This document shows, one piece after another, positions 13,267 through 46,385 of a stretch of 52,547 nt of DNA. The position numbers were made by a program, and so were the translations under genes. The DNA is from a virus (Duplodnaviria; Caudoviricetes). The DNA lies in the IMG/VR virus record IMGVR_UViG_3300021405_000017, positions 1 to 52,547 of that record; one strand, given 5' to 3'. Numbering within the stretch: the first letter of the stretch is position 1; each line of letters starts with the position of its first letter. Below the pieces are notes generated by a model. The model made no database searches. It saw nothing but the letters and a program-made list of their open reading frames with translations, and was not told the origin of the DNA.

Positions 13267-13481
13267 CGTCGCTCGCCCTTCCCCGTCGCGGAATCGGCCC
13301 TTTCGCTTATGGCGGGAAGCCCCGCCGGGCGACGCGCCCCCGGGCGCGGTGTCTCACACTTCGCCCGAGCGGTCCGCGAAGACAAGAGGGCGCCGCGCAC
13401 AATTTGCGCTCCGTCCACGGGAATAGGCGCGGCCTGGTCCGATTCAATTCTCATCACCACGCCGCGCCTCCTTCCGTCTCA

Positions 13482-13977
13482 GCCGGCCCAGCCCCGCCTC
13501 GCCTTGCCAGATCAAGCCTAGTCACACCGCGCCTGGTCCAGCCTCGCCGGCCCCGCAAGCCGCGCCATGCCAGGCCACGCCTTGCCTCGCCAGGCCTCAC
13601 CATTCCGGCCGCGCCGAGCCCGGCCTTGCCTAGCCACGCCACGCCGCGCCAGACCCCGCCGCGCCGGCCTTGCCTTGCCTCGCCGGGCCTAGTCGCGCCC
13701 GGCCGCACCGAGCCTGGCCGAGCCCGGCCGTGCCGCGCCCCGCCGAGCCCTGCCTGCCTCGCCCCACCTCGCCAGGTCCAGCCTTGCCAGGCCTTGCCCC
13801 ACGCCGCACCTGCCTTGCCCTGCCTCGCCAAGTCGCGCCCGGCCTCGCCGGACCCAGCCCAGCCTGGCCACGCCTGCCTTGCCACGCCCAGCCTCACCGG
13901 GGCCGGCCGCGCCTTGTCTAGCCTAGCCATGCCTGGTCCGGCCGCGCCGTGCCGCGCCTGCCTTGCCTCGCCTCGTC
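13482..13977 (-). ncRNA. GGY-NN pentamer array 1 (about 7 putative guide units)
   Basis: Strict 5-nt periodicity (plus strand RCCNN, minus strand GGYNN) with 4-nt steps at 13482, 13546, 13604, 13663, 13752, 13808, 13872 and 13956. Intergenic, starting at the upstream gene's stop codon. RNA status inferred. Confidence 0.8.
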
Positions 13978-14280
13978 TCATACGGGCGAATCGAGCCGTT
14001 TGAACTCGCCTCGCCGTAGCTCGATGGCCGGGACACTCCGGATCTCGCTGCGCCGCGCCTTGATGACGAATTCGCGCCATTCTCGCCGCTGCTCCCGCTC
14101 TAAGCCGCGTACTAGGTCAGCCTGATATTTCTCCGACAACGCGCGCTTCACCCAAGCGTCGAACGGCAGCCGAGCCGCAGCTGCCGCCTCCTCGAACGCC
14201 TGCATGATCGGCGAGGCAAGGCGAATGTGGAGCGTCTTGCCGCCCACCTCGTCGTCATTGTCATTGATGGGTTCGTTCAT
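13978..14280 (-). CDS. Small hypothetical protein (possible RHH/HicB-like DNA-binding) between arrays 1 and 2
   Basis: AAGGAG RBS; TLHIRL...AAAAARLPFDAWVKRAL. Confidence 0.6.
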   Translation of the reverse strand: MNEPINDNDDEVGGKTLHIRLASPIMQAFEEAAAAARLPFDAWVKRALSEKYQADLVRGLEREQRREWREFVIKARRSEIRSVPAIELRRGEFKRLDSPV

Positions 14281-14301
14281 GACCCTCTCCTTTTCACTTT
14301 T

Positions 14302-15777
14302 GCCCGCCTTGCCTGCCTTGCCTTGCCGAGCCTTGTCGGACCCAGCCGGGACACGCCAAGCCTCGCCATGCAACGTCCCGCCGCGCCTGCCTTGCCATGT
14401 CGGGCCTAGCCGGGTCGGATCTTGCCGAACCCCGCCAAGCCTCGCCTCGCCCGGCCCGGTCAAGCCACGCCTGCCTTTGCCTTGCCATGCCTGGCCTTGC
14501 CCAGCCGCACCGTGCCGAACCCGGTCGGACCCGGCCAAGCCTGCCATGCCAGACCTCGCCTCGCCGCGCCTTGCCAAGCCTCGCCAAACCCGGCCATGTC
14601 GCATCCGGCCGCGCCTGCCTCGCCCCGCCTTGCCTCGCCGCGCCCTGCCCAGCCCGGCCAGGCCGAATCGTACCGGGTCTAGTCATGCCCCGCCGGCCTC
14701 GCCTTGCCCCGCCAGGCCCAGTCTCGGCTCGTCCTGCCTCGCCTAGTCCCGCCCAGTCGCGCCCGACCATGTCAGGCCGTGCCCGGTCCCGTCTTGCCGT
14801 GCCGCGCCTTGCCAGGCCTGCCTCGCCATGCCTCGCCAAGTCGCGCCTTGCCTCACCGCGTCTGGCCCGGCCTTGCCGCGCCAGGTCTCGCCGTGTCGCG
14901 CCTGCCTTGCCTTGCCTTGCCCGGCCCCGCCTCGCCGGGTCCCGCCATGCCTGCCTCGCCTCACCCCATCGTGCCGGGCCAAGGCGTGTCCCGACATGCC
15001 TCGGCATGCCAGGCCCGGCCCGGCCGGACCTCGCCTGCCTAGCCTCGCCCGGTCGCGCCGAGTCGAGCCTAGCCTCGCCGCGCCCCGCCGTACCGTGCCC
15101 GGCCGGGTCATGCCTGCCTCGCCCCGCCGCGCCAGCGCCATGCCAAGCCTTGCCGAGTCGCGCCTGGTCGTGCCTGGCCCGGCCAGGCCCAGCCTGGCCA
15201 TGCCTGCGTTGCCTTGCCTCATCAGGTCAGGCCATGCCTCGCCTCGCCCAGCCTCGCCTCGCCTCGCCTGTCTGGCCATGCTTCGCCTCGTCACATCATG
15301 CCGCGCCGGATCAAGCCTCGCCCGGTCCCGCCGTGCCGTGCCTGACCCCGCCTCATCAGGTCTGGCCATGCCTGCCTCGCCTCGCTGCGCCGGGGCTCGC
15401 CCGGCCAAGCCGGGTCGAGTCCCGCCTGGCCCCGCCTAGCCTGCCTTGCCGTGTCAGGCCTCGTCACGCCTCGCCGTGTCCGGCCCAGCCTAGTCTGGCC
15501 ATGCCTGCCGTGTCCGGCCCAAACCAAGCCTCGCCTTGCCGCGCCTTGCCTCGCCACGCCTGCCTTGCCCGGCCAGGCCAAGCCTTGTCACGTCGCACTG
15601 CATCCCGCCTCGCCTGCCTTGCCTGGCCTCGCCAGGTCTCGCCGCCCTTGTCCTGCCCAGCCTCGCCTGCCTTGTCAGGCCACGCCTAGCCGGACCGGGC
15701 CGGGCCTAGCCTTGCCTCGCCGCATCTGGCCCGGCTCTGTCATGCCAAGCCTGGCCTTGCCTGCCTTGCCGTGTCAG
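14302..15777 (-). ncRNA. GGY-NN pentamer array 2 (about 19 putative guide units)
   Basis: About 1.47 kb of pentamers. GGCAGGC-type junctions at 14311, 14385, 14469, 14539, 14613, 14692, 14816, 14900, 14949, 15033, 15112, 15202, 15266, 15370, 15439, 15503, 15558, 15612, 15665 and 15759. Confidence 0.8.
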
Positions 15778-16316
15778 GCGGCGGTTCGTGAGCCGCCGCC
15801 CTTGCCTTTGCCGCCTTTGCCGCCGCCGGCCTTGCCCGCACCTTTGCTCGCAGCCTTGGCGGCGCGGGCTCGTTCGGCGATGGTTTCGAGGTTGAGCAAC
15901 ATGGTGTCCAAGTCTGGACCGACGCCCAGGACGAGGGCGACCTTTCGCGCCCGCTCTATAGCGGCGGCGATGCGGTCAACCTCGTCCTCGAGGACTCGCA
16001 GCGCCCGCGCGCGCTGACCTTTGAACGAGGTCAATTCGCAAGAGGTCTGCGTTTTCGGCGCTCGATCGGGATCGACAATGTAGTAGGGCACTACGATGGT
16101 TTCGGTCTCCGTGATGACCTCAAACCGGACGTAACGGATCAGGGTGCGGGCCTGCTCGATCCAATGCTGTTGCGCCGCCTTTTTTACGTCCCATTCGAAG
16201 TCTTCATGGATTGGAGAGCCGGGAGGCCGAGCCGCTTCGACCACCTTCTCAGGCTCAAGACGCCCGCTGGAGTCTTCCAGCGAGCGAATAAAGGCGGCCT
16301 TGGCCGCCGACATCAT
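15774..16316 (-). CDS. Partner protein of the RAMP-like gene (function unknown)
   Basis: LEPEKVVEAARPPGSPIHEDFEWD..AAQQHWIEQARTLIR motif; ATGA-coupled to the RAMP-like gene; array 2 begins at its stop codon. Confidence 0.75.
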   Translation of the reverse strand: MMSAAKAAFIRSLEDSSGRLEPEKVVEAARPPGSPIHEDFEWDVKKAAQQHWIEQARTLIRYVRFEVITETETIVVPYYIVDPDRAPKTQTSCELTSFKGQRARALRVLEDEVDRIAAAIERARKVALVLGVGPDLDTMLLNLETIAERARAAKAASKGAGKAGGGKGGKGKGGGSRTAA

Positions 16317-17197
16317 TGCGACAGCCCCACCTCGTCGCCGCCGCCATTGCTCTTAGGCGGGCGCTTGCCGTTTGCGGCTTTCGGCGTCTTGCCCTTTGAC
16401 GCCTTGCCGCCCTCGCGCTGAGAGCTAGCCTCGCGCCGGATGATCTCGCTCTCGTACCACACCCACAATTCTTCGCTGTCGATATCGCTCGCCTCCGGGT
16501 TATCGTAGGCCGCCTGTTGCACCTTACGGCCGCCGTTCTTGACGATATCGAGCCAGCGCGGGTCACGCGCATCGACGACCTCCCAGCCGCCGTTGTTGAA
16601 GGTGCCCTTCTCTGTTCGCCCGTCGCCGATGCCGGTCACATCGCCGGCGTTCGACATCAAGTTGACGATCGCCCGCTCGGTCGTCAGCGTCTTGATGAAT
16701 TGGACGGTGAGTTTCACCGCCCATGTTTTGAACATCGCGCGGGTTCGAATGTCGGGCACGCGCTTCATGCCCTCAAGGCGGACCCAATCCATGTAGAGGT
16801 AGGGCTTGCCATAGACGTGGACCGTCTGGTCGACCACCTGCACCAGACAGCCGATCTCAGTCTTCGTTGCACCTGGCGTGCGGAGCGCCGCGGAACCGAG
16901 CGCCTTTTTGAAAGCGCCGGTAGGGAAGTGAAAAAGCGTAGGCGCGCTATCGTCGCGGCACCGATACATTGTGTCGCGGAATTCAGCGAGCGGGTCATGT
17001 TTCAAAATGACCTGCTTCTCGGCGTTGTTTTTAGCGCGCGACGGAAGCAACAGCTGCTGCTTCGCTTTCGCGCTCGGCCGATTCATCACCAGGGGCGCCG
17101 TGCCCAGAAGATGGAAGACAACGTAGCCTCGCTCGAAGCGCTTAAGCTCCGAGACCATCTCGGTGGTGTCGCGTGTTTTACTGGGTTTGGTAGCCAT
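16313..17197 (-). CDS. Stand-alone RAMP/Cas7(Csm3)-like RNA-binding protein (Vipr-like)
   Basis: N-terminal LLGTAPLVM (cf. RAMP TxSPLxIG), FHFPTGAFKKAL (cf. YIPGSSLKGAL) and C-terminal Gly-rich loop GIGDGRTEKGTFNNGGWEV. Flanked by pentamer arrays; AGGAGG RBS. Confidence 0.75.
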   Translation of the reverse strand: MATKPSKTRDTTEMVSELKRFERGYVVFHLLGTAPLVMNRPSAKAKQQLLLPSRAKNNAEKQVILKHDPLAEFRDTMYRCRDDSAPTLFHFPTGAFKKALGSAALRTPGATKTEIGCLVQVVDQTVHVYGKPYLYMDWVRLEGMKRVPDIRTRAMFKTWAVKLTVQFIKTLTTERAIVNLMSNAGDVTGIGDGRTEKGTFNNGGWEVVDARDPRWLDIVKNGGRKVQQAAYDNPEASDIDSEELWVWYESEIIRREASSQREGGKASKGKTPKAANGKRPPKSNGGGDEVGLSQ

Positions 17198-17252
17198 TCT
17201 CGTCTATGCTCCTCCTTTCGGAAAACGGCCTATCCGCTTTCCGTCGTCGCTT

Positions 17253-17279
17253 GGCCCGGGCGTCGTGAGCGCCCGGGCC
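17253..17279 (-). other. 10-bp perfect hairpin at the 3' end of array 3
   Basis: GGCCCGGGCG-7 nt-CGCCCGGGCC. Confidence 0.7.
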
Positions 17280-17299
17280 TTGCGTTTCGTTCGCGCTCA

Positions 17300-17939
17300 G
17301 CCTGCCGGCCGAGCCTTGCTTTGCCTCGCCATGCCGGGCCGTGCCACGCCGGGCCTGACCAGACCCAGCCCTGCCGAGCTGCGCCACGCCAAGTCGCGCC
17401 TGCCTCGCCCAGCCGGGCCGTGTCGGGCCTAGCCGCACCTCGCCCGGCCTCGCCAGGTCCGGCCGCGCCAAGCCTTGCCTGCGTCGCCGCGCCGTATCGC
17501 GCCGGACCGGGCCACGCCCCGCCAAGCCTCGGCCAGACAAGCCTCGCCAGGCCGCGCCTGCCTTGCCTCGCCATGCTGAGCCCAACCCCGCCAAGCCCCG
17601 CCGCGCCAGGTTCAGCCAGGTCCGGCCTCGCCTGCCTCGCCTTGCTCCGCCCCACCTCGCCGTGCCCCGTCACGCGTTGCCCGGTCGCGCCCAGCCGTGC
17701 CCCGTCTCGTCTAGCCATGCCTGCCTTGCCCCGCCGAGCCGGGTCTGGCCTTGCCCCGCCAAACCGCGCCACGCCAAGCCTGGCCTGACCCCGCCTGCGT
17801 CGCCTTGCCTCGCCTCGCCCGGCCAAGCCGCGCCCGGCCTCGCCATGTCGGGCTCAGCCCGGCCAGGCCTCGCCGGTCATGCCGCCCCTTATCGAGCCCA
17901 ACCCCGCCATGTCTGGCCAAACCGCGCCTGCCTTGCCTC
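17300..17939 (-). ncRNA. GGY-NN pentamer array 3 (about 8 putative guide units)
   Basis: Junctions at 17300, 17398, 17477, 17556, 17630, 17719, 17793, 17872 and 17926; spacings mostly 5n+4 (54-98 nt). Confidence 0.8.
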
Positions 17940-18966
17940 AAAGGAGGTTCTCCTCTGATTTGGCCGCAGAGGAGCGGCGAGGCGGTTCACCACCGTCCTC
18001 TGCGGCCGCATCCGGCGCGGGTGGTTGTGGCCCGGCGGGAGGGGGATTCTCCGCCGTTTGAGCCGCGCCGGAATCTAAGTTCGGGGATAGGTCAGTAGCG
18101 CCGGCTGCCCCGGCGAGCGCGTTCAGCTTCGAGGACAGGCCTTTCAGGGCAGGGCCTCGGTCGGCTTTCGGTTCTGGAAACAGCGTCTCGACTGTCGACT
18201 CGCCAGACTTGATCGCCTGCCGCATCGCGGTCAGCGTAATCAGATCGTCGAGGCCGACGTCCTCGATCCCCGGAACCTCAAGCGCGTTGAAGACGCGCTC
18301 GGGGGTAACGCCCCAGGCCGCGAAAGACCTGACCGCTACGTCCCGGCGCTCAGAGAGCGTCTTGACGTCGCCGGCGATCACCCGCTCGACCGACTGATAG
18401 GCTCGCCGCCAGATCGCCTTGGGCACGCCGCGCATGATCGCGTTGCGAAGCGCGATCGAACACGCGGCCTGGCCGGTCACCATGATTAAATCGTCGTCGT
18501 AAATCCGGCCATGCTTGTCGAAGATACGCCGGCGCACCCGTGACGTGGTGACGCGGCCCGTCTCCAAATCGTGGAAGACGCCCTCGGCCTCGACGAACTT
18601 TTCAATCCGATCGATGTGGATGACGCGGGAGGCGTCGCGGCAATTGCCCCATTGCGAGGCGACGATCTCGGCGAAACGTATGGACGGACCGCGAATCGCC
18701 TTTTTGCCGCGAGGCAGCGCATAGACGCATTCTTCCGCGGTCTCGTCGTCGAGCGTCGCCAGGCCCAGGATGTCGCTCATCACCTTCTTTTGCGATCGTG
18801 GATAGGCGTGCGCGGTATTGACCTGCTGATCGACCTCGGCGCGGCTGAGCGCGATCGCCAGGCTCATTTGGCTTTGCGCCGGACCGGCGTCGATCGTCGC
18901 CAGCGGGCCGAAGTCGTCCGTCTGTTCGAGATCCGTTTCGACGGGCTTAGCCATTGGCTTTTTCAT
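17938..18966 (-). CDS. Putative single-strand annealing/recombination protein
   Basis: DQQVNTAHAYPRS...YALPRG...GPSIRFAE..ASQWGN; adjacent to the YqaJ exonuclease. Function inferred from context. Confidence 0.6.
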   Translation of the reverse strand: MKKPMAKPVETDLEQTDDFGPLATIDAGPAQSQMSLAIALSRAEVDQQVNTAHAYPRSQKKVMSDILGLATLDDETAEECVYALPRGKKAIRGPSIRFAEIVASQWGNCRDASRVIHIDRIEKFVEAEGVFHDLETGRVTTSRVRRRIFDKHGRIYDDDLIMVTGQAACSIALRNAIMRGVPKAIWRRAYQSVERVIAGDVKTLSERRDVAVRSFAAWGVTPERVFNALEVPGIEDVGLDDLITLTAMRQAIKSGESTVETLFPEPKADRGPALKGLSSKLNALAGAAGATDLSPNLDSGAAQTAENPPPAGPQPPAPDAAAEDGGEPPRRSSAAKSEENLL

Positions 18967-19912
18967 GTTGCGCTGCCTTGATTGAGACTTGTCGCCAGAT
19001 GGACGCCTTCACCTGGTAGGCGCCGCGGCGGCGGGTCGGGGCGACGATCAGGCGCCCGTCAGGCAGCCGGCCGCGCTCGGCGAGCCCGAGCTTGGCGACA
19101 ATTTCCGTGTCGATGATTTTGCGCTCTTTGGCCGCCGCGGCTCCGTCATCCTCGCGCGCCTTGAACGCCTCGCGTTGCGTAACAAGGTCGAGGATGCGGT
19201 TGTCGGCGCGTAGGTCGACTTCGGTGTCTTCCGCCTCAGCGTAGAGGCGCGCGATTACATCGGCGTCGTCAGCGTAATGGGGTGGATAGGAATCGCCCTC
19301 CGCGACGCGGCGCCAGAAGTCGGCGGTGAGCTCGCGTAGTTTCACCATGATCGCTGACTCGATCGGTATCTCCTCGACGTGGGCCGTCCACTCCGACATT
19401 TCCAATACCGCCACCGCGGCCCATGTGGCGCCGGTCAGAGAGGCCTCAACAATCGCCTGGACGGCGATCCAAAGCGGGACTTCAATTTCGCCACCCGCCT
19501 GCCAAGTGCGGCGGAAGGCCTCGCCCGCGGTTTTCACCTGCAGAACGCCCAACCCTTCGATGTCAGGACAGGTGACGAAGGCGTCGGGCGTGGCGCCGAT
19601 CCGGGCCACTGGATCGCGGTAGTAATGATCGCCAGGAACGATCGTCCAATCAGGGTAGGTTTCCGCGACCATGTTGAGGACGACGTGCTCGAGGTCGCGC
19701 CCGCGCCGCATCGCCGGCGTCTCATGGACGCGCTCTTCGACGCGCCCGCTCTTAACGGCCCACAACTCGAAGGCGGATTTGTAGGGATGGATCGCATCGG
19801 CGAGCAAAGCCGCGATTTCAGATGCGGTGACATCCTGCCGACGCCATTTGAGCCACTCGGCGTGATCGGTGATCGGCCGCTTTTCGATTGTCTGCTCGGC
19901 GAACGCGTTCAT
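18947..19912 (-). CDS. YqaJ/lambda-exonuclease family viral recombinase nuclease
   Basis: EWLKWRR..VTASE, RGRDLE, IGATPDA, VLQVKT, AVQ motifs. Confidence 0.85.
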   Translation of the reverse strand: MNAFAEQTIEKRPITDHAEWLKWRRQDVTASEIAALLADAIHPYKSAFELWAVKSGRVEERVHETPAMRRGRDLEHVVLNMVAETYPDWTIVPGDHYYRDPVARIGATPDAFVTCPDIEGLGVLQVKTAGEAFRRTWQAGGEIEVPLWIAVQAIVEASLTGATWAAVAVLEMSEWTAHVEEIPIESAIMVKLRELTADFWRRVAEGDSYPPHYADDADVIARLYAEAEDTEVDLRADNRILDLVTQREAFKAREDDGAAAAKERKIIDTEIVAKLGLAERGRLPDGRLIVAPTRRRGAYQVKASIWRQVSIKAAQHEKANG

Positions 19913-20178
19913 GCGTTCCCCGTCTGGTCAGGCTGGCCTTCGAACCGCGCGATTTGCTCCTTGAGCATCGTCACGATGTCCGCGCGGCTGGCGCCGTTGC
20001 TGATGTAATTCACGCGCCCGTCATCGGCGCCGAAAGGAAAGACCATCAAGATGAAGCCGACCTTGCGCTCCTTGCCCTTAGCTACGCCGTTGAACGCCTC
20101 GTCAAGCGCGCCGGCGACCGCGTTCATCGTATCGCGGTAGGTCTCCTCGATCGGCGCGTCGCCCAGCCGCTCAGTCAT
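19909..20178 (-). CDS. Conserved phage hypothetical protein
   Basis: GFILMVFPFG..GRVNYISNG.RADIV.MLKE. Confidence 0.7.
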   Translation of the reverse strand: MTERLGDAPIEETYRDTMNAVAGALDEAFNGVAKGKERKVGFILMVFPFGADDGRVNYISNGASRADIVTMLKEQIARFEGQPDQTGNA

Positions 20179-20366
20179 GGCGTCCTCGCCAAGGTGATAG
20201 GCGCCTTGCGCCGGGTGCGATGGTGCAGCACGCGCGGGTGCTTCCACGGATTGTCGTCGCGGCGCCTGTTCGACAACGTGCACGCGCAAGCCCGACACAT
20301 GCCCGTCTTGCCGGTTCCCTTGGTCGGCCTTTCGCAGCGTGGACATCTCAGCTCAAGTTCGGTCAT
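20175..20366 (-). CDS. Small zinc-finger protein
   Basis: CPRC...CRAC; ATGA overlaps. Confidence 0.5.
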   Translation of the reverse strand: MTELELRCPRCERPTKGTGKTGMCRACACTLSNRRRDDNPWKHPRVLHHRTRRKAPITLARTP

Positions 20367-20704
20367 GGCGCCCGTTCTCGTTCGCTGTCCGTTCCGATCC
20401 GCGAATCGTCGGCGCGCCCATGGCCCGCGTCATCCGGCAAGGGCGCCCGGGCCTTGTCCCCCGGATTGTTTGCCTCAGCCCCGTTCGGCTGCCGGCGCTG
20501 AATGTTGCGCATCTCGTTGACGAACATCCGGAACGTCTCGGCGAGTTCAGGATCCGCGCCGGATTGCGCCGCCTGAATCTGGGCCGCGGTCAGGCCAACG
20601 AGCGCCTCGCCGGACGTCTTGCGCTCATGCGCGCGACACTGCGTTGCGGTTGGGAAGTCGCGGCCATCGCGGGCGACATAGACAGTGCGTTGCTCGGCCT
20701 TCAT
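20363..20704 (-). CDS. Hypothetical protein
   Basis: YVARDGRDFPT...CRAHE; ATGA overlaps. Confidence 0.6.
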   Translation of the reverse strand: MKAEQRTVYVARDGRDFPTATQCRAHERKTSGEALVGLTAAQIQAAQSGADPELAETFRMFVNEMRNIQRRQPNGAEANNPGDKARAPLPDDAGHGRADDSRIGTDSERERAP

Positions 20705-20919
20705 CGGACCAGCGTCGCTCCCTTCAACTGCCGGCCTACGTCGTCACTCATGAGGTCGATCGACCGGGCGGTTTCGCGGTGCGCCTCAGCGATACGAAGG
20801 CTTGCTTCCTCAATCGTGTTCGCAAGCTCCATCAACGCCTCACAAATCGTAACGTCGCGGCTATCGGTGCCCTTCATGACTTCGCGCCTGGCTTCCTGCG
20901 CTTCGCTCAGTGTCCGCAT
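20701..20919 (-). CDS. Hypothetical protein
   Basis: AGGAGG RBS. Confidence 0.6.
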   Translation of the reverse strand: MRTLSEAQEARREVMKGTDSRDVTICEALMELANTIEEASLRIAEAHRETARSIDLMSDDVGRQLKGATLVR

Positions 20920-20940
20920 TGGTTCCTCCTAGAAGTGCTT

Positions 20941-21028
20941 GCCGGTCCGGCCGCGCCACGTCCCGCCGCGCCATACCCAGCCGGATCAGACCGAGCCTCG
21001 CCGCGCCTCGCCGGCCTTACCTCGCCAT
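20941..21028 (-). ncRNA. Solo GGY-NN unit (array 4)
   Basis: 13 pentamers between 4-nt steps at 20941 and 21010; intergenic. Confidence 0.75.
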
Positions 21029-21034
21029 AGTTCT

Positions 21035-21385
21035 TCATGACCAAACGATGCGCTCGAACAGCACCGCCGGGCCGGCAATCCAGGGCAACGTTTCCGCGAT
21101 CTTGACGTTCTGGTAGAGCAGCGCGTTGCGCCGGTAGATGATGGTAGCGGCCTCGTTACGCGGCAGGCCCCTGTCATGGCCCATCTCGTCGACGAACATG
21201 TCCGCCCTCTTGAAGGCGAGGCCGCCATTGAAGTCAGCGAGCACACTGACGTGCTCGCAGTGCTCGCAGCCGATCAGGAGCTGCATCAGCCCGTTGATCT
21301 CGCGATAGGCCGGCCGCTCCGGCAGTTCGAACGTCCGCGTCTCGCTCGACTCGTCGGGCTTTAGGACGAGAAGCTTAGTTTCCAT
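21035..21385 (-). CDS. DUF3846-like hypothetical protein
   Basis: MFVDEMG...LPRNEAAT.IY...IAGPAVLF. Confidence 0.65.
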   Translation of the reverse strand: METKLLVLKPDESSETRTFELPERPAYREINGLMQLLIGCEHCEHVSVLADFNGGLAFKRADMFVDEMGHDRGLPRNEAATIIYRRNALLYQNVKIAETLPWIAGPAVLFERIVWS

Positions 21386-21575
21386 CGGCGGGCGCCTCTT
21401 GCTCAATGATGTCGAAGCGCTCGAACAGTTCGACCGCGACGTCCTGCACGTCGATGACCAGCGGTCCTGAGCCGCCGGATGGGACGACAAACGTGTTGCC
21501 CTCGCGCTCGCCGCCGTCGCCGAGGGCCTCGAAGATCGCGTCCATGAGGGCCTTCATGCTTGCCGGCTGTTTCAT
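21375..21575 (-). CDS. Hypothetical protein
   Basis: Coupled ORF in the early left operon. Confidence 0.5.
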   Translation of the reverse strand: MKQPASMKALMDAIFEALGDGGEREGNTFVVPSGGSGPLVIDVQDVAVELFERFDIIEQEAPADGN

Positions 21576-21751
21576 GCGGCGCTCACCCGCCCGATCGTCA
21601 TCGCCGCAAACCATGGCTCGCCGTCAGGGCCGGTGAATGTCGCCTTCCACTGAAACGGAACCGGGATGCTTCCATCCTGGATCGCGAGATTGATCTCGAA
21701 TTCAAGCTCGGCGAGCGCCGCTTCCATGTCGGCCTTGCGTTCCTCGCTCAT
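21572..21751 (-). CDS. Hypothetical protein (59 aa, below ORF-track cutoff)
   Basis: MSEERKADMEAALAELEFEINLAIQDG...; ATGA overlaps on both sides. Confidence 0.55.
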   Translation of the reverse strand: MSEERKADMEAALAELEFEINLAIQDGSIPVPFQWKATFTGPDGEPWFAAMTIGRVSAA

Positions 21752-28867: not shown

Positions 28868-30300
28868 TGCCAGAGCGACCGCCCTATTTCACCGAGGCTC
28901 AATGGCAGGAGCACCTCCGCCGGACAGGACAGGCGCCGGCCGGCGAGGAGCAGAAGCCGCCGCCGCCCGACAACGGCCAGCCTCCGGGCGGCTTCAATGA
29001 GAGGGTGGTCCAATTCGACCAGGCTCGAAAGCGCAAGCCCAAGCCGCCGCCGACGCCGCCGCCGGGCGGCTGGCCCGAATGGGTGGGACGTCTACGGCGC
29101 GACGATCGCGGCCGAGTCATCCCCGACCTCGCCAACGTCCTGATCGCCCTGCGCGGCGAGGACAAGCTCGCCGAGGCCTGCGGCTTCGACGAGATGCTAC
29201 AGCACTCGATGGTGTTGAAGGAATGGCCGCGCCTGCCCGACGCCAAGCCGATCAAGCCGCCGCCGCACGAGACCGATGATGATGACATTAGCCGGATCCA
29301 GGAGTGGTTGCAGCGCATGGGCCTGCCCCGGATCGGGCGCGAGATCGTCGGCCAGGCGGTCGAGGTCTTCGCCCGCGAGCGCAGCTTTCACCCGGTGCGC
29401 GATTGGCTCAACGGCCTCAGCTGGGACGGCGTACGCCGAATCGACCGCTGGCTGTTCGTCTATTTCGGCGCGGAAGCCGAGGATGATGACGCGATTGAAT
29501 ACGTCAGCGCGATCGGCAAGATGTTCCTCATCGCCATGGTGGCGCGGGTGTTTCGACCCGGCTGCCAAGCCGATTACATGCTCGTGCTCGAGGGCGACCA
29601 GGGCATCCTCAAATCAAGCGCCTGCCGCGCGCTCGCCGGCCAATGGTTCTCGGACAGCTTGCCGGATGACATTCAGGGCAAGGACGCCCGCCAGCACTTG
29701 CGCGGCAAATGGCTGATTGAAGTCTCCGAGCTTGCCGCCTTTTCCAAGGCCGAGACCGAGGCGCTGAAAGCCTTCATCACCCGGCGCGAGGAACGCTACC
29801 GTCCGCCCTTCGGCCGGCATGACGTGGTCGAAAAGCGGCAATGCCTGTTCATCGGCACCACCAACGAGGAGAGCTACATCAAGGACCAGACCGGCGGGCG
29901 CCGCTATTGGCCGGTCAAATGCCTGTCGATCGACGTCGAGGGCCTCGCCGGCGTCCGCGACCAGTTATTCGCCGAGGCCTTGATCCGGTTCCGCATGGGT
30001 GACCGCTGGTGGCCGACCGCCGCGGACGAGGCCAGGTTCTTCAAGCCGCAACAGGAGAGACGGGAGGAAGATGATCCGTGGGTTCCGCCCGTGGCGACCT
30101 GGCAGCAGGGCTTCCCATCGGACAAGGTGACGGTGTCGCAAGTTGCCCGCGAATGTTTGGGGTTTGACGGCAATTCCCGCATTGACCCGCGAGTACAGCA
30201 GCGGATCGCTAAGATACTCAAGAGGTTAGGTTGGGCGCAACTGCCGAGGACGATGCACGGCCGCTTTTACGCCCGGCCGCGAGGCGACGACGACGCATGA
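28867..30300 (+). CDS. VirE/VapE-family SF3 helicase (replication)
   Basis: FHPVRDWL, Walker A LEGDQGILKSS, Walker B LIEVSEL, FIGTTN, DQTGGRRYWPV. Confidence 0.9.
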   Translation: MPERPPYFTEAQWQEHLRRTGQAPAGEEQKPPPPDNGQPPGGFNERVVQFDQARKRKPKPPPTPPPGGWPEWVGRLRRDDRGRVIPDLANVLIALRGEDKLAEACGFDEMLQHSMVLKEWPRLPDAKPIKPPPHETDDDDISRIQEWLQRMGLPRIGREIVGQAVEVFARERSFHPVRDWLNGLSWDGVRRIDRWLFVYFGAEAEDDDAIEYVSAIGKMFLIAMVARVFRPGCQADYMLVLEGDQGILKSSACRALAGQWFSDSLPDDIQGKDARQHLRGKWLIEVSELAAFSKAETEALKAFITRREERYRPPFGRHDVVEKRQCLFIGTTNEESYIKDQTGGRRYWPVKCLSIDVEGLAGVRDQLFAEALIRFRMGDRWWPTAADEARFFKPQQERREEDDPWVPPVATWQQGFPSDKVTVSQVARECLGFDGNSRIDPRVQQRIAKILKRLGWAQLPRTMHGRFYARPRGDDDA

Positions 30301-45866: not shown

Positions 45867-45983
45867 GGCGGCGGCCCGCGCTAAACGGACCGCCGCCCCT
45901 TGCCTTGCCCAGCCCTGCCGCGCCTGGCCCCACCGGACCGGGCCGAGCCGTGCCTTACCACGCAACGCCAAGCTTGCTTGGCG
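45867..45983 (-). ncRNA. Solo GGY-NN unit (array 5) with its own promoter and 3' hairpin
   Basis: 14 pentamers at 45902-45971. Upstream TTGAGC-N18-TAGGTT (46020-45991); downstream hairpin 45867-45897. Confidence 0.75.
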
Positions 45984-46034: not shown

Positions 46035-46385
46035 ATGCTACCGGCGACGTACAATCTCGATCTGTATAGAGGCGACACGCTAAGGTTACAGGTAAAGTTG
46101 TGGAACAACGAGGAGCGTGATGATCCGGCCGATTTGGATGGCGTGATCGCAGCGAGCCAGTTTCGTGTACGGCCCGACGCTGAGCCGATGGTCGAGATGG
46201 CGTGCGCGATAACTTTGCCGAACGTCGTCGATCTAACCCTCAGTTCAGACGCGAGCCGGATGTTACCAAAAAAGGGCGTGTGGGATCTGGAATTGCGTTT
46301 CCCAGGCGGGGACGTATTTACACCGCTAGCCGGGAAAATGACGCTGAAACCTGACGTAACGCTACCGCCAGGCGCCGCGCCCTGA
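46035..46385 (+). CDS. BppU-like structural adaptor domain protein
   Basis: [10 protein letters not shown]...DL.G..AASQ.R...GVWDLEL...T.LAG...PDVT. Confidence 0.7.

What the first reader, a model, noticed from the sequence alone, without database searches (positions are those of the whole stretch)
20941..21100. Solo guide sits next to the gene whose homologue it encodes
Unit 20945-21009 decodes to AESLPWIAGVA. The gene ending just beside it encodes AETLPWIAGPA (21065-21097, 18/22; one mismatch is a Leu TTG/CTN first-position swap). A guide linked to a resistant allele of its own target resembles a selfish allele-exclusion or homing cassette, and may hint at local guide origin.
Basis: partly seen in the sequence, partly recalled or inferred. 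Interest (0 to 1): 0.85.

Follow-up and report, generated by a model that had tools for sequence, protein, structure and literature searches.

The report
Solo VIPR guide beside its target's homologue
This short five-letter repeat is a stand-alone guide RNA of a phage's CRISPR-like VIPR silencing system; it sits right after a gene and spells a conserved part of that gene as rival phages write it, so weapon and resistant copy probably travel together.

Summary
Unit 20945-21009 is 13 in-phase NN-GGY pentamers on the minus strand. Its dinucleotides match codon positions 1-2 of the neighbouring gene's tail at 18/22, or 18/26 over all 13. That is the best of about 105,000 positions in the window.

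The system is already published as VIPR (three 2026 bioRxiv preprints). It pairs a RAMP protein with GGY/NN guide RNAs that read DNA while skipping every third base. Solo guides whose self-match is lower than their non-self match are also in print.

The guide does aim at the neighbour's gene family. The homologous site is the top hit of the whole locus in 45/62 distinct relatives, against 0/310 shuffles. An independent relative, L079, carries a different 13-pentamer guide at the same spot. That guide spells another motif of the same gene: 22/26 on this window, up to 24/26 elsewhere.

No perfectly matched allele was found (best 22/26), and the resident allele's 18/26 equals the family mode. The second solo behaves the same way.

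What is not in the parts of the preprints I read is the cis-linkage of guide and sub-threshold resident allele, recurring at one site with reciprocal targeting. Follow-up agents of this scan have already reported the same pattern on other genomes. This is a new variant of a known kind, of moderate interest.

The parts
20945..21009 (-). Solo vrRNA unit: 13 NN-GGY pentamers (10 GGY and 3 GAY cores). This is the guide portion.
   Evidence: Core composition is like the arrays (78% GGY and 16% GAY of 456 cores). A length of 13 lies within the 7-30 range of the 33 parsed units.
21010..21034 (-). 5' leader between the stop codon of the upstream gene and the unit: AGAACT, three pentamers (AT-GGC, GA-GGT, AA-GGC), then a 4-nt phase step.
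   Evidence: The RA-GGC + 4-nt step resembles unit boundaries in the arrays.
20936..20944 (-). 3' boundary of the unit: a 4-nt phase step followed by one degenerate pentamer. The ribosome-binding site of the next gene comes next.
   Evidence: Aligns with the 3' boundary of the L079 unit.
21035..21385 (-). Gene X: 116-aa early-operon protein, weakly DUF3846-like. It is the resident member of the family the guide is aimed at.
   Evidence: 163 homologues. DUF3846 is matched weakly by 21 of 68 members, best E 5e-4, below Pfam's cut-off. No PHROG.
21062..21100 (-). Resident near-match of the solo guide, codons IAETLPWIAGPAV: 18/26.
21167..21205 (-). Site in gene X (codons ADMFVDEMGHDRG) matched 22/26 by the solo guide of the related contig L079. 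The first 10 dinucleotides are perfect.
   Evidence: The next best position in the window scores 17.
20701..20919 (-). Next gene of the operon (72 aa, starts MRT...). Its homologue follows gene X directly in relatives that lack the unit, and follows the unit in L079.
16313..17197 (-). Candidate vipr gene: 294-aa protein with a RAMP fold.
   Evidence: AF2 with 66 sequences gave pLDDT 86.8. Top Foldseek PDB hits are Csm3/Cas7-type subunits, E about 1e-4, probability 1.0. Relatives are encoded on 540 viral contigs; 59 of the 80 fetched loci hold GGY-NN runs, almost all next to the gene and on its strand.
15774..16316 (-). Candidate vap accessory gene (180 aa). It overlaps the vipr stop by 4 nt.
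   Evidence: phrog_15946, unknown function. The role is inferred from position only.
13461..15758 (-). Main vrRNA arrays 1 and 2 (13461-13955 and 14315-15758), split by a 101-aa ORF. They are staggered units cut by 4-nt steps.
17308..17861 (-). vrRNA array 3, upstream of vipr.
45887..45971 (-). Second solo unit (17 pentamers), antisense to the late genes and 64 nt upstream of gene 46035-46385.
46287..46325 (+). Resident near-match of the second solo (codons [13 protein letters not shown]): 19/26, the best in the window.
   Evidence: The closest homologues P0211 and P0209 allow 23-25 and 22-24 of 26.

Best explanation
The unit is a stand-alone (solo) vrRNA of this phage's own VIPR system.

It lies in the early-left operon as an intercistronic insert directly after the stop codon of a DUF3846-like gene, so it is probably transcribed with that gene (inferred). 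It would then be cut at its phase-step boundaries and coated by the Vipr RAMP protein encoded 3.7 kb further down the same operon (inferred).

By the published one-base-skip code, its 13 NN dinucleotides read codon positions 1-2 of the conserved C-terminal motif (D/E-A-E-S-L-P-W-I-A-G-V-A) of the same gene family, as a subset of rival phages write it. Binding there would block the rival's early-left operon. In relatives such as L003 that operon carries exo, a recT-like gene and the rival's own VIPR array downstream (mechanism taken from the preprints; effect here inferred).

The resident allele differs at 8 of the 26 read bases. Two of the last three dinucleotides at the 3' end are wholly mismatched. 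It is therefore presumably spared (inferred, not tested).

Because the guide and the tolerated allele are about 25-90 bp apart, recombination between related phages cannot easily separate weapon from antidote. The pair can move as one cassette.
For: System identity:
- GGY/NN pentamer arrays flank a RAMP-fold gene.
- 59 of 80 fetched viral loci with a homologue of that gene hold GGY-NN runs, almost all next to the gene and on its strand.
- The architecture matches the preprint's 'staggered arrays' with 1-nt overlaps.

Target identity:
- The resident site is the best of about 105,000 window positions.
- In 45 of 62 distinct homologue loci the homologous in-frame site is the single best hit of the whole locus on both strands, against 0 of 310 shuffled guides.

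Independent replicate:
- L079 is among the two closest C-terminal homologues, 77% identity. It has a 13-pentamer unit at the same position with unrelated NN. Those NN spell the ADMFVDEMGH motif of the same family.
- That guide scores 22/26 on this window (next best 17) and reaches at least 21/26 at 23 of 73 distinct best sites.
- It is the top hit in 69 of 75 loci, against 0 of 375 shuffles.
- Targeting is reciprocal: the window's guide scores 21/26 on L079's allele.

Non-self better than self:
- L031 scores 22, L079 and L081 score 21, the resident scores 18 of 26.

Second solo:
- The resident scores 19/26, the best in the window.
- The closest homologues P0211 and P0209 allow 23-25 and 22-24 of 26.
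- The family site is the top hit in 36 of 71 loci, against 0 of 355 shuffles.

Patchy presence:
- Only 1 of 67 distinct homologue gene ends (L079) has a unit downstream.

Literature:
- The one-base-skip code, wobble alignment, the 80% threshold and targeting of rival phages are described in 10.64898/2026.04.26.720920.
- Solo vrRNAs with self-match below non-self match are described in 10.64898/2026.10.15.759431.
Against: - No allele with a perfect or near-perfect DNA match was found. The best is 22/26. The exact 11-dinucleotide pattern gave 0 hits in viral contigs.
- The resident allele's 18/26 is the mode of the 59 distinct alleles. It is not visibly recoded relative to the family, and most relatives would be spared just as it is.
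Self-binding therefore cannot be excluded.
- No mismatch-tolerance data appear in the three preprints. The word 'mismatch' gave 0 hits in 10.64898/2026.04.26.720927 and only methods text in the first preprint.
- In 1.39 Mb of homologue loci, shuffled guides reached 21/26 by chance. The 21-22/26 scores are convincing only because of where they fall.
- The 13th dinucleotide (CG) scores 0 of 2 in all but three of the sampled alleles and at most 1 of 2 in any.
- Expression, processing and loading are not shown. No promoter-like or terminator-like site lies in 20600-21700.
- L079's own allele is cut off by the contig end, so its self-match is known for only 5 dinucleotides (7/10).
- Of 9 other remote units tested in other VIPR loci, only 1 had a nearby above-shuffle hit.
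Confidence: 0.6

Rival explanations
1. Autoregulation. The solo guide binds its own phage's gene X site with partial complementarity, and the second solo binds its own neighbour likewise. This would tune or time the phage's own early-left (or late) transcription rather than attack rivals.
For: - The self-match is 82% over the central 11 dinucleotides, with two runs of consecutive perfect dinucleotides (2 and 5).
- For both solos the best hit in the whole genome is the adjacent gene.
- The guide is co-oriented with, and immediately downstream of, the gene it matches.
- No perfectly matched foreign allele was found for solo 1.
Against: - Foreign alleles match better than the resident one for both solos: 22 against 18 of 26, and 23-25 against 19 of 26.
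- L079's guide matches 23 foreign alleles at 21/26 or better.
- The preprints report self-match scores below threshold, or below non-self scores, as the rule.
- A self-regulator would be expected to match its own site best.
Confidence: 0.15
2. Relic or decoy. The unit is either a decaying leftover of an array that no longer works, or a decoy RNA that soaks up a rival phage's Vipr protein, as satellite solo vrRNAs do. In either case the match to gene X has no function in this phage.
For: - 3 of 13 cores are GAY rather than GGY, and the 3' boundary lacks the RA-GGC-A-GGC form usual in the arrays.
- The best foreign match is only 22/26.
- Decoy solo vrRNAs are documented for F5 satellites (abstract).
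Against: - GAY cores are as common in the main arrays (16% of 456).
- The guide still picks out the in-frame family site in 45 of 62 loci. A drifting relic would lose that.
- L079 keeps a unit of the same length at the same site with an even better family match, which argues for maintained function.
Confidence: 0.12
3. Local, templated guide origin. The NN of solo units are written from the neighbouring gene, or from a rival's copy aligned to it, by an unknown acquisition process. Adjacency would then reflect where guides are born, not selection for linkage.
For: - 3 of 3 solo units examined (two in the window, one in L079) target the family of the adjacent gene.
- The window and L079 units align in register over all 13 pentamers. 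L079's three irregular cores (positions 5, 7, 10) all fall on irregular positions of the window unit, including a shared rare GAT at position 5. NN identity is 7/26, which is chance level (GAT is 12 of 456 array cores).
- A stepwise mutational path between two working guides would need about 19 changes.
Against: - No acquisition machinery is known or seen: no Cas1-like or reverse-transcriptase gene was noted among the ORFs I annotated. I did not annotate the whole window.
- The scaffold coincidence is post hoc. My rough estimate is p about 0.01-0.03.
- Unit swapping by recombination between GGC repeats could replace NN blocks.
- The guide does not match the resident gene perfectly.
- The array guide 13559-13603 near-matches a resident gene 15 kb away, so adjacency is not universal.
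Confidence: 0.1
4. Chance resemblance between a GC-rich repeat and a GC-rich coding sequence.
For: 5 of 40 shuffled guides reach the same local score somewhere in the window. Shuffles reach 21/26 in 1.39 Mb.
Against: - The position-specific agreement is 45 of 62 loci against 0 of 310 shuffles.
- The L079 guide is an independent replicate: 22/26 against a next best of 17.
- The second solo behaves the same way.
Confidence: 0.01

Closest known systems
VIPR systems (Vipr RAMP protein + vap + vrRNAs), bioRxiv 10.64898/2026.04.26.720920. Structural basis in 10.64898/2026.04.26.720927.
   Same: - Phage-borne RAMP-fold protein flanked by arrays of GGY/NN pentamers.
- 9-16 repeats per guide (13 here).
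- NN read DNA with a one-base skip aligned to the wobble position.
- Targets are conserved coding motifs of rival phages.
- 4-nt steps fit the 'staggered arrays with 1-nt overlaps' of fig. S18, of which I read only the legend.
   Different: - The protein is 294 aa rather than about 20 kD.
- No invariant pseudoknot tail of the type II kind was seen.
- 16% of cores are GAY.
- The arrays total about 2.5 kb.
- The type (I-VII) could not be assigned, because the supplementary tables were not available.
Solo (orphan) vrRNAs of F5 satellites and of VIPR-null SUSP1-family phages, bioRxiv 10.64898/2026.10.15.759431.
   Same: - A single vrRNA standing apart from vipr.
- Wobble-aligned targeting of a gene family that relatives carry.
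- Self-match lower than non-self match, read as avoidance of autoimmunity.
   Different: - Here the phage is VIPR-positive.
- The solo is an intercistronic insert directly behind the resident homologue of its own target.
- A relative holds a different guide at the same site against the same gene.
- The two phages' guides hit each other's allele (21/26 and 22/26).
- No such cis-linkage is stated in the parts I read (sections 8, 9 and 17, plus word searches for linkage, neighbouring and self-match). Supplements were not seen.
Homing endonuclease genes next to a cleavage-resistant allele, and marker exclusion in T-even phages (recalled from general knowledge; no call).
   Same: A sequence-specific agent is encoded beside an immune version of its own target. 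It acts on the sensitive allele of co-infecting relatives and has a patchy distribution.
   Different: No nuclease is evident. The published VIPR action in phage types is transcriptional silencing. Gene conversion of the rival allele is not shown.
Virus-borne mini-CRISPR arrays aimed at close relatives for superinfection exclusion (recalled from general knowledge; no call).
   Same: A virus carries guides against conserved genes of its own relatives and avoids matching itself.
   Different: The guide here uses a gapped code and a different effector. It is physically tied to the resident allele.

Membership tests
VIPR system | Vipr protein with a RAMP (RRM core, G-loop, thumb) fold encoded next to the repeat RNA | tested here: met
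   ORF 16313-17197(-): AF2 with a 66-sequence alignment gave pLDDT 86.8 and pTM 0.79. Top Foldseek PDB hits are Csm3/Cas7-type subunits of type III and VII complexes, E about 1e-4, probability 1.0, TM 0.3-0.5. A GxGDGRxEKG glycine-rich motif is conserved in the family. The single-sequence fold failed (pLDDT 30.9).
VIPR system | vrRNA made of tandem GGY/NN (YNNGG) pentamers, 9-16 per guide, with conserved GGY and hypervariable NN | tested here: met
   13 pentamers, 10 GGY and 3 GAY. 33 units were parsed in the window. The NN of the aligned window and L079 units share 7/26 while the cores are conserved.
VIPR system | Target recognition by the one-base-skip rule, with the skipped base on the codon wobble position | tested here: met
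   Period-3 sliding finds the in-frame family site as the top hit in 45 of 62 loci (window guide) and 69 of 75 loci (L079 guide), with 0 for shuffles. I did not test other skip lengths.
VIPR system | Accessory vap gene beside vipr | tested here: inconclusive
   ORF 15774-16316(-) overlaps the vipr stop. It hits only phrog_15946 (unknown function) and has no Pfam match. It was not compared with vap1-6.
VIPR system | vrRNA is expressed, processed and co-purifies with Vipr | not testable with these tools
   No RNA run holds the stretch.
VIPR type II (SUSP1 / P. fulva) | Invariant 3' tail with a conserved fold or pseudoknot after the repeat tract | not tested
   Units abut each other through 4-nt steps with no spacer long enough for a 40-nt tail. 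By eye this fits the 'staggered array' architecture better than type II. No folding was run.
Solo/orphan vrRNA | A single vrRNA unit standing apart from the vipr-flanking arrays | tested here: met
   The unit lies 3.7 kb from vipr and 3.1 kb from the nearest array, with no other in-phase run within that distance.
Solo/orphan vrRNA | Self-match lower than the match to relatives' copies of the target | tested here: met
   Self is 18/26, against 22, 21 and 21 of 26 for the three best of 59 distinct alleles. However, 43 of the 59 score 18 or less. Second solo: self is 19/26, against 22/26 (L200) and protein-level bounds of 23-25 (P0211).
Selfish weapon-plus-immune-allele cassette (homing-like) | The agent is encoded adjacent to a resistant allele of its own target and is patchily distributed among relatives | tested here: met
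   The unit starts 25 nt after the gene's stop, and the near-match lies 53-91 nt from the unit. Only L079 among 67 distinct homologue gene ends has a unit.
Selfish weapon-plus-immune-allele cassette (homing-like) | The resident allele is actually immune, and the cassette spreads into sensitive genomes | not testable with these tools
   Needs reporter and co-infection experiments.

The most novel reading that the evidence does not exclude
The solo site behind gene X is a conserved scaffold whose NN letters are rewritten in place from the neighbouring gene family. That would be a primitive, Cas1-free way of acquiring guides. The resulting guide-plus-tolerated-allele cassette would then act as a nuclease-free homing element. 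Vipr stalls on the rival's allele during co-infection, and the phage's own exo and recT-like genes, encoded just downstream, copy the cassette into the rival.
Probability: 0.1. Interest if true: 0.9.

Novelty: new variant of a known kind. Interest (0 to 1): 0.55.

Why it matters
VIPR was described only in 2026, and how its guides arise, avoid self-targeting and are inherited is still open.

This locus shows a guide wired in cis to the resident, sub-threshold copy of its own target. A relative holds a different guide at the same site against the same gene, and the two phages' guides hit each other's allele. This gives a concrete, testable model: guide and tolerated allele are inherited together as one poison-and-antidote cassette, used against close relatives in a reciprocal arms race.

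It also gives a natural pair of guides and alleles (69%, 81% and 85% NN match) with which the mismatch tolerance of VIPR could be measured.

If the in-register scaffold with rewritten NN reflects a real process, it bears on how programmable guides were acquired before CRISPR adaptation existed.

Tried and rejected
- Rfam gathering scan of the whole window: 0 families.
- Pfam and PHROGs on gene X and its small neighbours: nothing above threshold apart from weak DUF3846.
- Exact IUPAC pattern of the 11-dinucleotide core in viral contigs: 0 matches.
- The search for related loci with the single Vipr protein and with the single solo-2 neighbour protein: no relatives. Alignments worked instead.
- Single-sequence AF2 of the Vipr candidate: pLDDT 30.9, unusable.
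- Array units against the window. Apart from 13559-13603, which near-matches 29125-29147 (0 of 40 shuffles), none of the 31 array units beat the shuffles in the window. Of the 29 array units of at most 20 pentamers scored against the gene-X homologue loci, none exceeded the shuffle maximum. Unit 13608-13662 reached 18/22 inside L020's gene X, which equals the shuffle maximum, so I rejected it as evidence.
- Generalisation to other VIPR loci. Among 9 remote units in the 80 Vipr loci, only L112 9071-9125 had a nearby above-shuffle hit (19/22, 239 nt away, 0 of 50). The 10-kb flanks hold too few remote solos for a test.
- Promoter/terminator scan of 20600-21700: 0 and 0.
- Sequencing runs: no RNA holder was listed. 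Laid contigs of four soil runs cover the solo only in X1, the probable source. One X1 contig is a co-occurring relative whose gene-X end continues into a different sequence. The uncovered parts in X2-X4 say nothing.
- I first considered a TRAP-like ring-protein binding site, G-quadruplex or i-motif DNA, and pentapeptide coding. I dropped these once the VIPR preprints were found.
- Supplementary files of the preprints (data S3/S4, type tables, Supplementary Fig. 3A) were not available. They may already list this phage or state guide-target adjacency.
- I searched the literature only with the terms.
Full report
WHAT IS THERE

The window is a complete 52.5-kb contig with 65% G+C. It has a temperate-phage layout and is its own 'genome' in the tool set.

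On the + strand it holds long runs of in-phase pentamers RYC-NN, which read as NN-GGY on the minus strand. They lie at 13461-13955, 14315-15758 and 17308-17861, with two isolated units at 20945-21009 and 45887-45971. No such run has GGC in phase on the + strand. A dynamic-programming parse cuts them into 33 units of 7-30 pentamers separated by 4-nt phase steps.

The unit in question is 13 pentamers with cores 8 GGC, 2 GGT, 2 GAC and 1 GAT. That composition is like the arrays, where 78% of 456 cores are GGY and 16% are GAY.

It lies in a 115-nt spacer between the stop codon of a minus-strand gene (21035-21385, 116 aa) and the ribosome-binding site of the next gene (20701-20919). In transcript orientation it is preceded by three pentamers and a phase step, and followed by another phase step.

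THE OBSERVATION

The minus-strand dinucleotides are GA GC GA TC CT CC TG AT GC GG GT GC CG. Laid on codon positions 1-2 of the gene's tail (IAETLPWIAGPAV, 21100..21062) they match 0,2,2,1,1,2,2,2,2,2,0,2,0.

This is the single best of about 105,000 positions in the window. The next best are one position at 16 and six at 15. The Leu TTG against CT mismatch is real.

As a bare score it is not overwhelming. 5 of 40 order-shuffled guides reach the same local score somewhere in the window. So I looked for evidence other than the score.

WHAT THE REPEATS ARE

A full-text search for 'pentanucleotide repeats / phage / intergenic' found a 2026 bioRxiv preprint (10.64898/2026.04.26.720920). I read its abstract, sections 4, 10, 20, 26 and 27, and passages found by word search.

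It describes VIPR systems as follows:
- A phage-encoded RAMP protein (Vipr) works with vrRNAs of 9-16 YNNGG repeats.
- The NN pair with double-stranded DNA while every third target base is skipped.
- The skipped base usually falls on the wobble position.
- Natural targets are rival phages and satellites.
- A match of 80% or more of NN is the working threshold.
- No self hit reached that threshold in the clades the authors checked.
- The legend of fig. S18 describes 'staggered arrays' in which neighbouring vrRNAs overlap by 1 nt, which is what a 4-nt step looks like.

A second preprint (10.64898/2026.04.26.720927; passages only) gives the structural basis: one protomer per repeat and an R-loop triplex. 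It contains no occurrence of 'mismatch'.

A third preprint (10.64898/2026.10.15.759431; abstract, sections 8, 9, 17 and passages) describes solo or orphan vrRNAs on satellites and on VIPR-null phages. Some have self-match scores lower than non-self scores, which the authors read as avoidance of autoimmunity.

A fourth paper (10.64898/2026.10.21.760802) I saw only in the search listing.

MEMBERSHIP

ORF 16313-17197(-) has 87 homologues. With a 66-sequence alignment it folds at pLDDT 86.8. Its best PDB matches are Csm3/Cas7-type RAMP subunits, with E about 1e-4 and probability 1.0.

Relatives are encoded on 540 of the 567 candidate stretches in viral contigs. Of the 80 loci kept, 59 hold GGY-NN runs. 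Nearly all of these are next to the gene and on its strand; one locus also has a run on the other strand.

The window therefore carries a genuine VIPR system.

IS THE SOLO GUIDE AIMED AT ITS NEIGHBOUR'S FAMILY?

Gene X has 163 homologues. It is weakly DUF3846-like: 21 of 68 members match, best E 5e-4, below Pfam's cut-off.

I fetched 91 homologue loci: 41 viral, 6 genomic and 44 metagenomic. In 62 distinct loci with a recognisable C-terminal motif, the homologous in-frame site is the single best hit of the whole locus on both strands in 45. For shuffled guides the figure is 0 of 310. The relation to the gene family is therefore not chance.

A REPLICATE FROM ANOTHER PHAGE

L079 is a 1,144-nt metagenome contig. 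Its gene-X fragment is among the two closest to the window over the C-terminal part (77% identity over residues 69-116; L056 has 78% over residues 40-116). It has its own 13-pentamer unit directly after the stop codon, followed by the homologue of the next gene.

Its NN are unrelated to the window's: 7 of 26 are identical. They spell A-D/E-M/I-F/L-V-D/E-D/E-M/I-G-H/Q-..., which is the ADMFVDEMGH motif of the same family.
- On the window it scores 22/26 at 21205..21167, with the first ten dinucleotides perfect. The next best position scores 17.
- It reaches 24/26 on L050 and at least 21/26 at 23 of 73 distinct best sites.
- It is the top hit in 69 of 75 loci, against 0 of 375 shuffles.

In the other direction, the window's guide scores 21/26 on L079's allele, with the first seven dinucleotides perfect. 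So two related phages hold different guides at the same site. Each exceeds the 80% threshold on the other's copy of the neighbouring gene.

Among 67 distinct homologue gene ends, only L079 has a unit downstream. In syntenic relatives (L002, L003, L043, L050) the next gene follows the stop within about 15 nt.

I dropped 18 loci in which my motif pattern found no site, and 14 duplicate sites. That leaves 59 distinct alleles. Their scores out of 26 are distributed as follows:

| Score | 12 | 13 | 14 | 15 | 16 | 17 | 18 | 19 | 20 | 21 | 22 |
|---|---|---|---|---|---|---|---|---|---|---|---|
| Alleles | 1 | 1 | 2 | 3 | 5 | 6 | 25 | 10 | 3 | 2 | 1 |

- The resident allele scores 18, which is the mode.
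- No allele is perfect.
- Three reach the 80% threshold: L031 at 22, and L079 and L081 at 21.
- Protein-level bounds on 113 homologues give a ceiling of 23/26 (P0002, P0025, P0032). 17 of them could reach 21.
- The 13th dinucleotide scores 0 of 2 in all but three of the sampled alleles and at most 1 of 2 in any.

The guide therefore looks specific for a sub-class of alleles (D-A/P-E-S-L-P-W-I-A-G-V-A). That sub-class is only partly sampled. The resident allele is spared in the same way as most of the family, not by conspicuous recoding. The refutation clause 'homologues match no better' holds for the majority and fails for a minority.

THE SECOND SOLO

The second solo unit (45887-45971) lies 64 nt upstream of gene 46035-46385 and on the opposite strand.
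- Its best hit in the window is inside that gene: 19/26 at 46287-46325, with the next best positions at 17 and 16.
- The two closest homologues carry LQLAWPGGDVFT (P0211) and [12 protein letters not shown] (P0209). These allow 23-25 and 22-24 of 26.
- In 71 distinct, more distant viral loci the family site is the top hit in 36, against 0 of 355 shuffles. The best score is 22/26, and none of the 80 loci has a unit within 2.5 kb.

So 3 of 3 solo units examined are aimed at the family of the adjacent gene. In the two cases that could be measured, the resident copy scores below the best foreign copies.

HOW IT MOST LIKELY WORKS

Shown:
- the identity of the system;
- the gene family the guide is aimed at;
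- the adjacency of guide and resident allele;
- the patchy presence of the unit among relatives;
- the reciprocal matches between the window and L079.

Inferred:
- The unit is transcribed with the early-left operon, since no promoter-like or terminator-like site lies in 20600-21700.
- It is cut out and loaded onto Vipr made from the same operon.
- It binds the rival's gene X and so blocks the rival's early-left operon. In L003 that operon continues through exo and a recT-like gene into a GGY-NN array.
- The resident allele escapes because of 8 mismatched bases of 26. These include two wholly mismatched dinucleotides among the last three at the 3' end.
- Tight linkage keeps the guide together with a tolerated allele when mosaic phages recombine.

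WHAT REMAINS OPEN

- Autoregulation is not excluded, because the self-match over 11 positions is 82%.
- No mismatch-tolerance data are in the texts I read.
- Expression is unknown. No RNA run holds the stretch.

An unexpected detail concerns the scaffolds. The window and L079 units align in register over all 13 pentamers. L079's three irregular cores, at positions 5, 7 and 10, all fall on irregular positions of the window unit. Both have a rare GAT at position 5; GAT accounts for 12 of 456 array cores. Yet the NN are unrelated. This hints at a conserved scaffold whose letters were replaced wholesale.

NOVELTY

The system, its code, solo vrRNAs and the rule that self-match is lower than non-self match are all in print as 2026 preprints.

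Three things are not stated in the parts I read:
- the cis-linkage of a solo guide to the resident homologue of its target in a VIPR-positive phage;
- its recurrence at one site with a different guide in a relative;
- the reciprocal hits between the two phages.

Supplements were not available.

This scan's own notes show that follow-up agents have already reported the same 'solo guide beside its target' arrangement in several other genomes. Those are unchecked AI notes, but they mean this window is one more case of a recurring pattern, not a first sighting.

I rate it a new variant of a known kind, with interest 0.55.

Noticed in passing
window 20945-21009 (minus) against L079 158-222: The two solo units align in register over 13 pentamers. 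L079's three non-GGC cores (positions 5, 7, 10) all sit on non-GGC positions of the window unit, and both have a rare GAT at position 5. The NN share only 7/26. The scaffold looks homologous and the guide letters look rewritten.
   Followed up: partly
L001 2990-3250 (Mycobacterium phage Quico, NC_028751.1, between gp56 and gp57): blastn of window 15800-20900 hit 33 Mycobacterium phage records over the array part only. Quico holds the same RCC-NN staggered array in an intergenic stretch without annotation, and other records annotate it as hypothetical proteins. Cheoctovirus-type mycobacteriophages probably carry VIPR-like arrays.
   Followed up: partly
window 13559-13603 against 29125-29147: This array unit has a local match in a resident gene 15 kb away. 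The match beats all 40 shuffles. It is a near-self match that is not adjacent to its guide.
   Followed up: no
window 13608-13662 against 21046-21076, and L020 6289: This array unit decodes to A-G-L-A-V-V-..., close to the very end of gene X (AGPAVLFER). It scores 18/22 on L020's homologue, which only equals the shuffle maximum. It may be a second guide against the same gene, or chance.
   Followed up: partly
L112 9071-9125: In another Vipr-encoding viral contig, an 11-pentamer unit upstream of vipr has a 19/22 hit 239 nt away on the opposite strand (0 of 50 shuffles). It may be another guide next to a near-self site.
   Followed up: no
window 13461-17861, unit 3' ends: The last dinucleotide before a 4-nt step is mostly AA or GA, and the second-to-last core is almost always GGC (non-GGC in 1 of 33 units). 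This suggests a semi-constant 3' boundary used for processing.
   Followed up: no
window 21034-21090, run X1 record 5: The probable source sample also holds a related contig. Its gene-X end (6 differences over 57 nt) runs into a different downstream sequence that resembles the hairpin after L054's gene, without a solo unit. Rival alleles co-occur in the same soil sample.
   Followed up: no
window 13978-14283 (minus): A 101-aa ORF with no Pfam or PHROG match sits between arrays 1 and 2, inside the VIPR locus.
   Followed up: no
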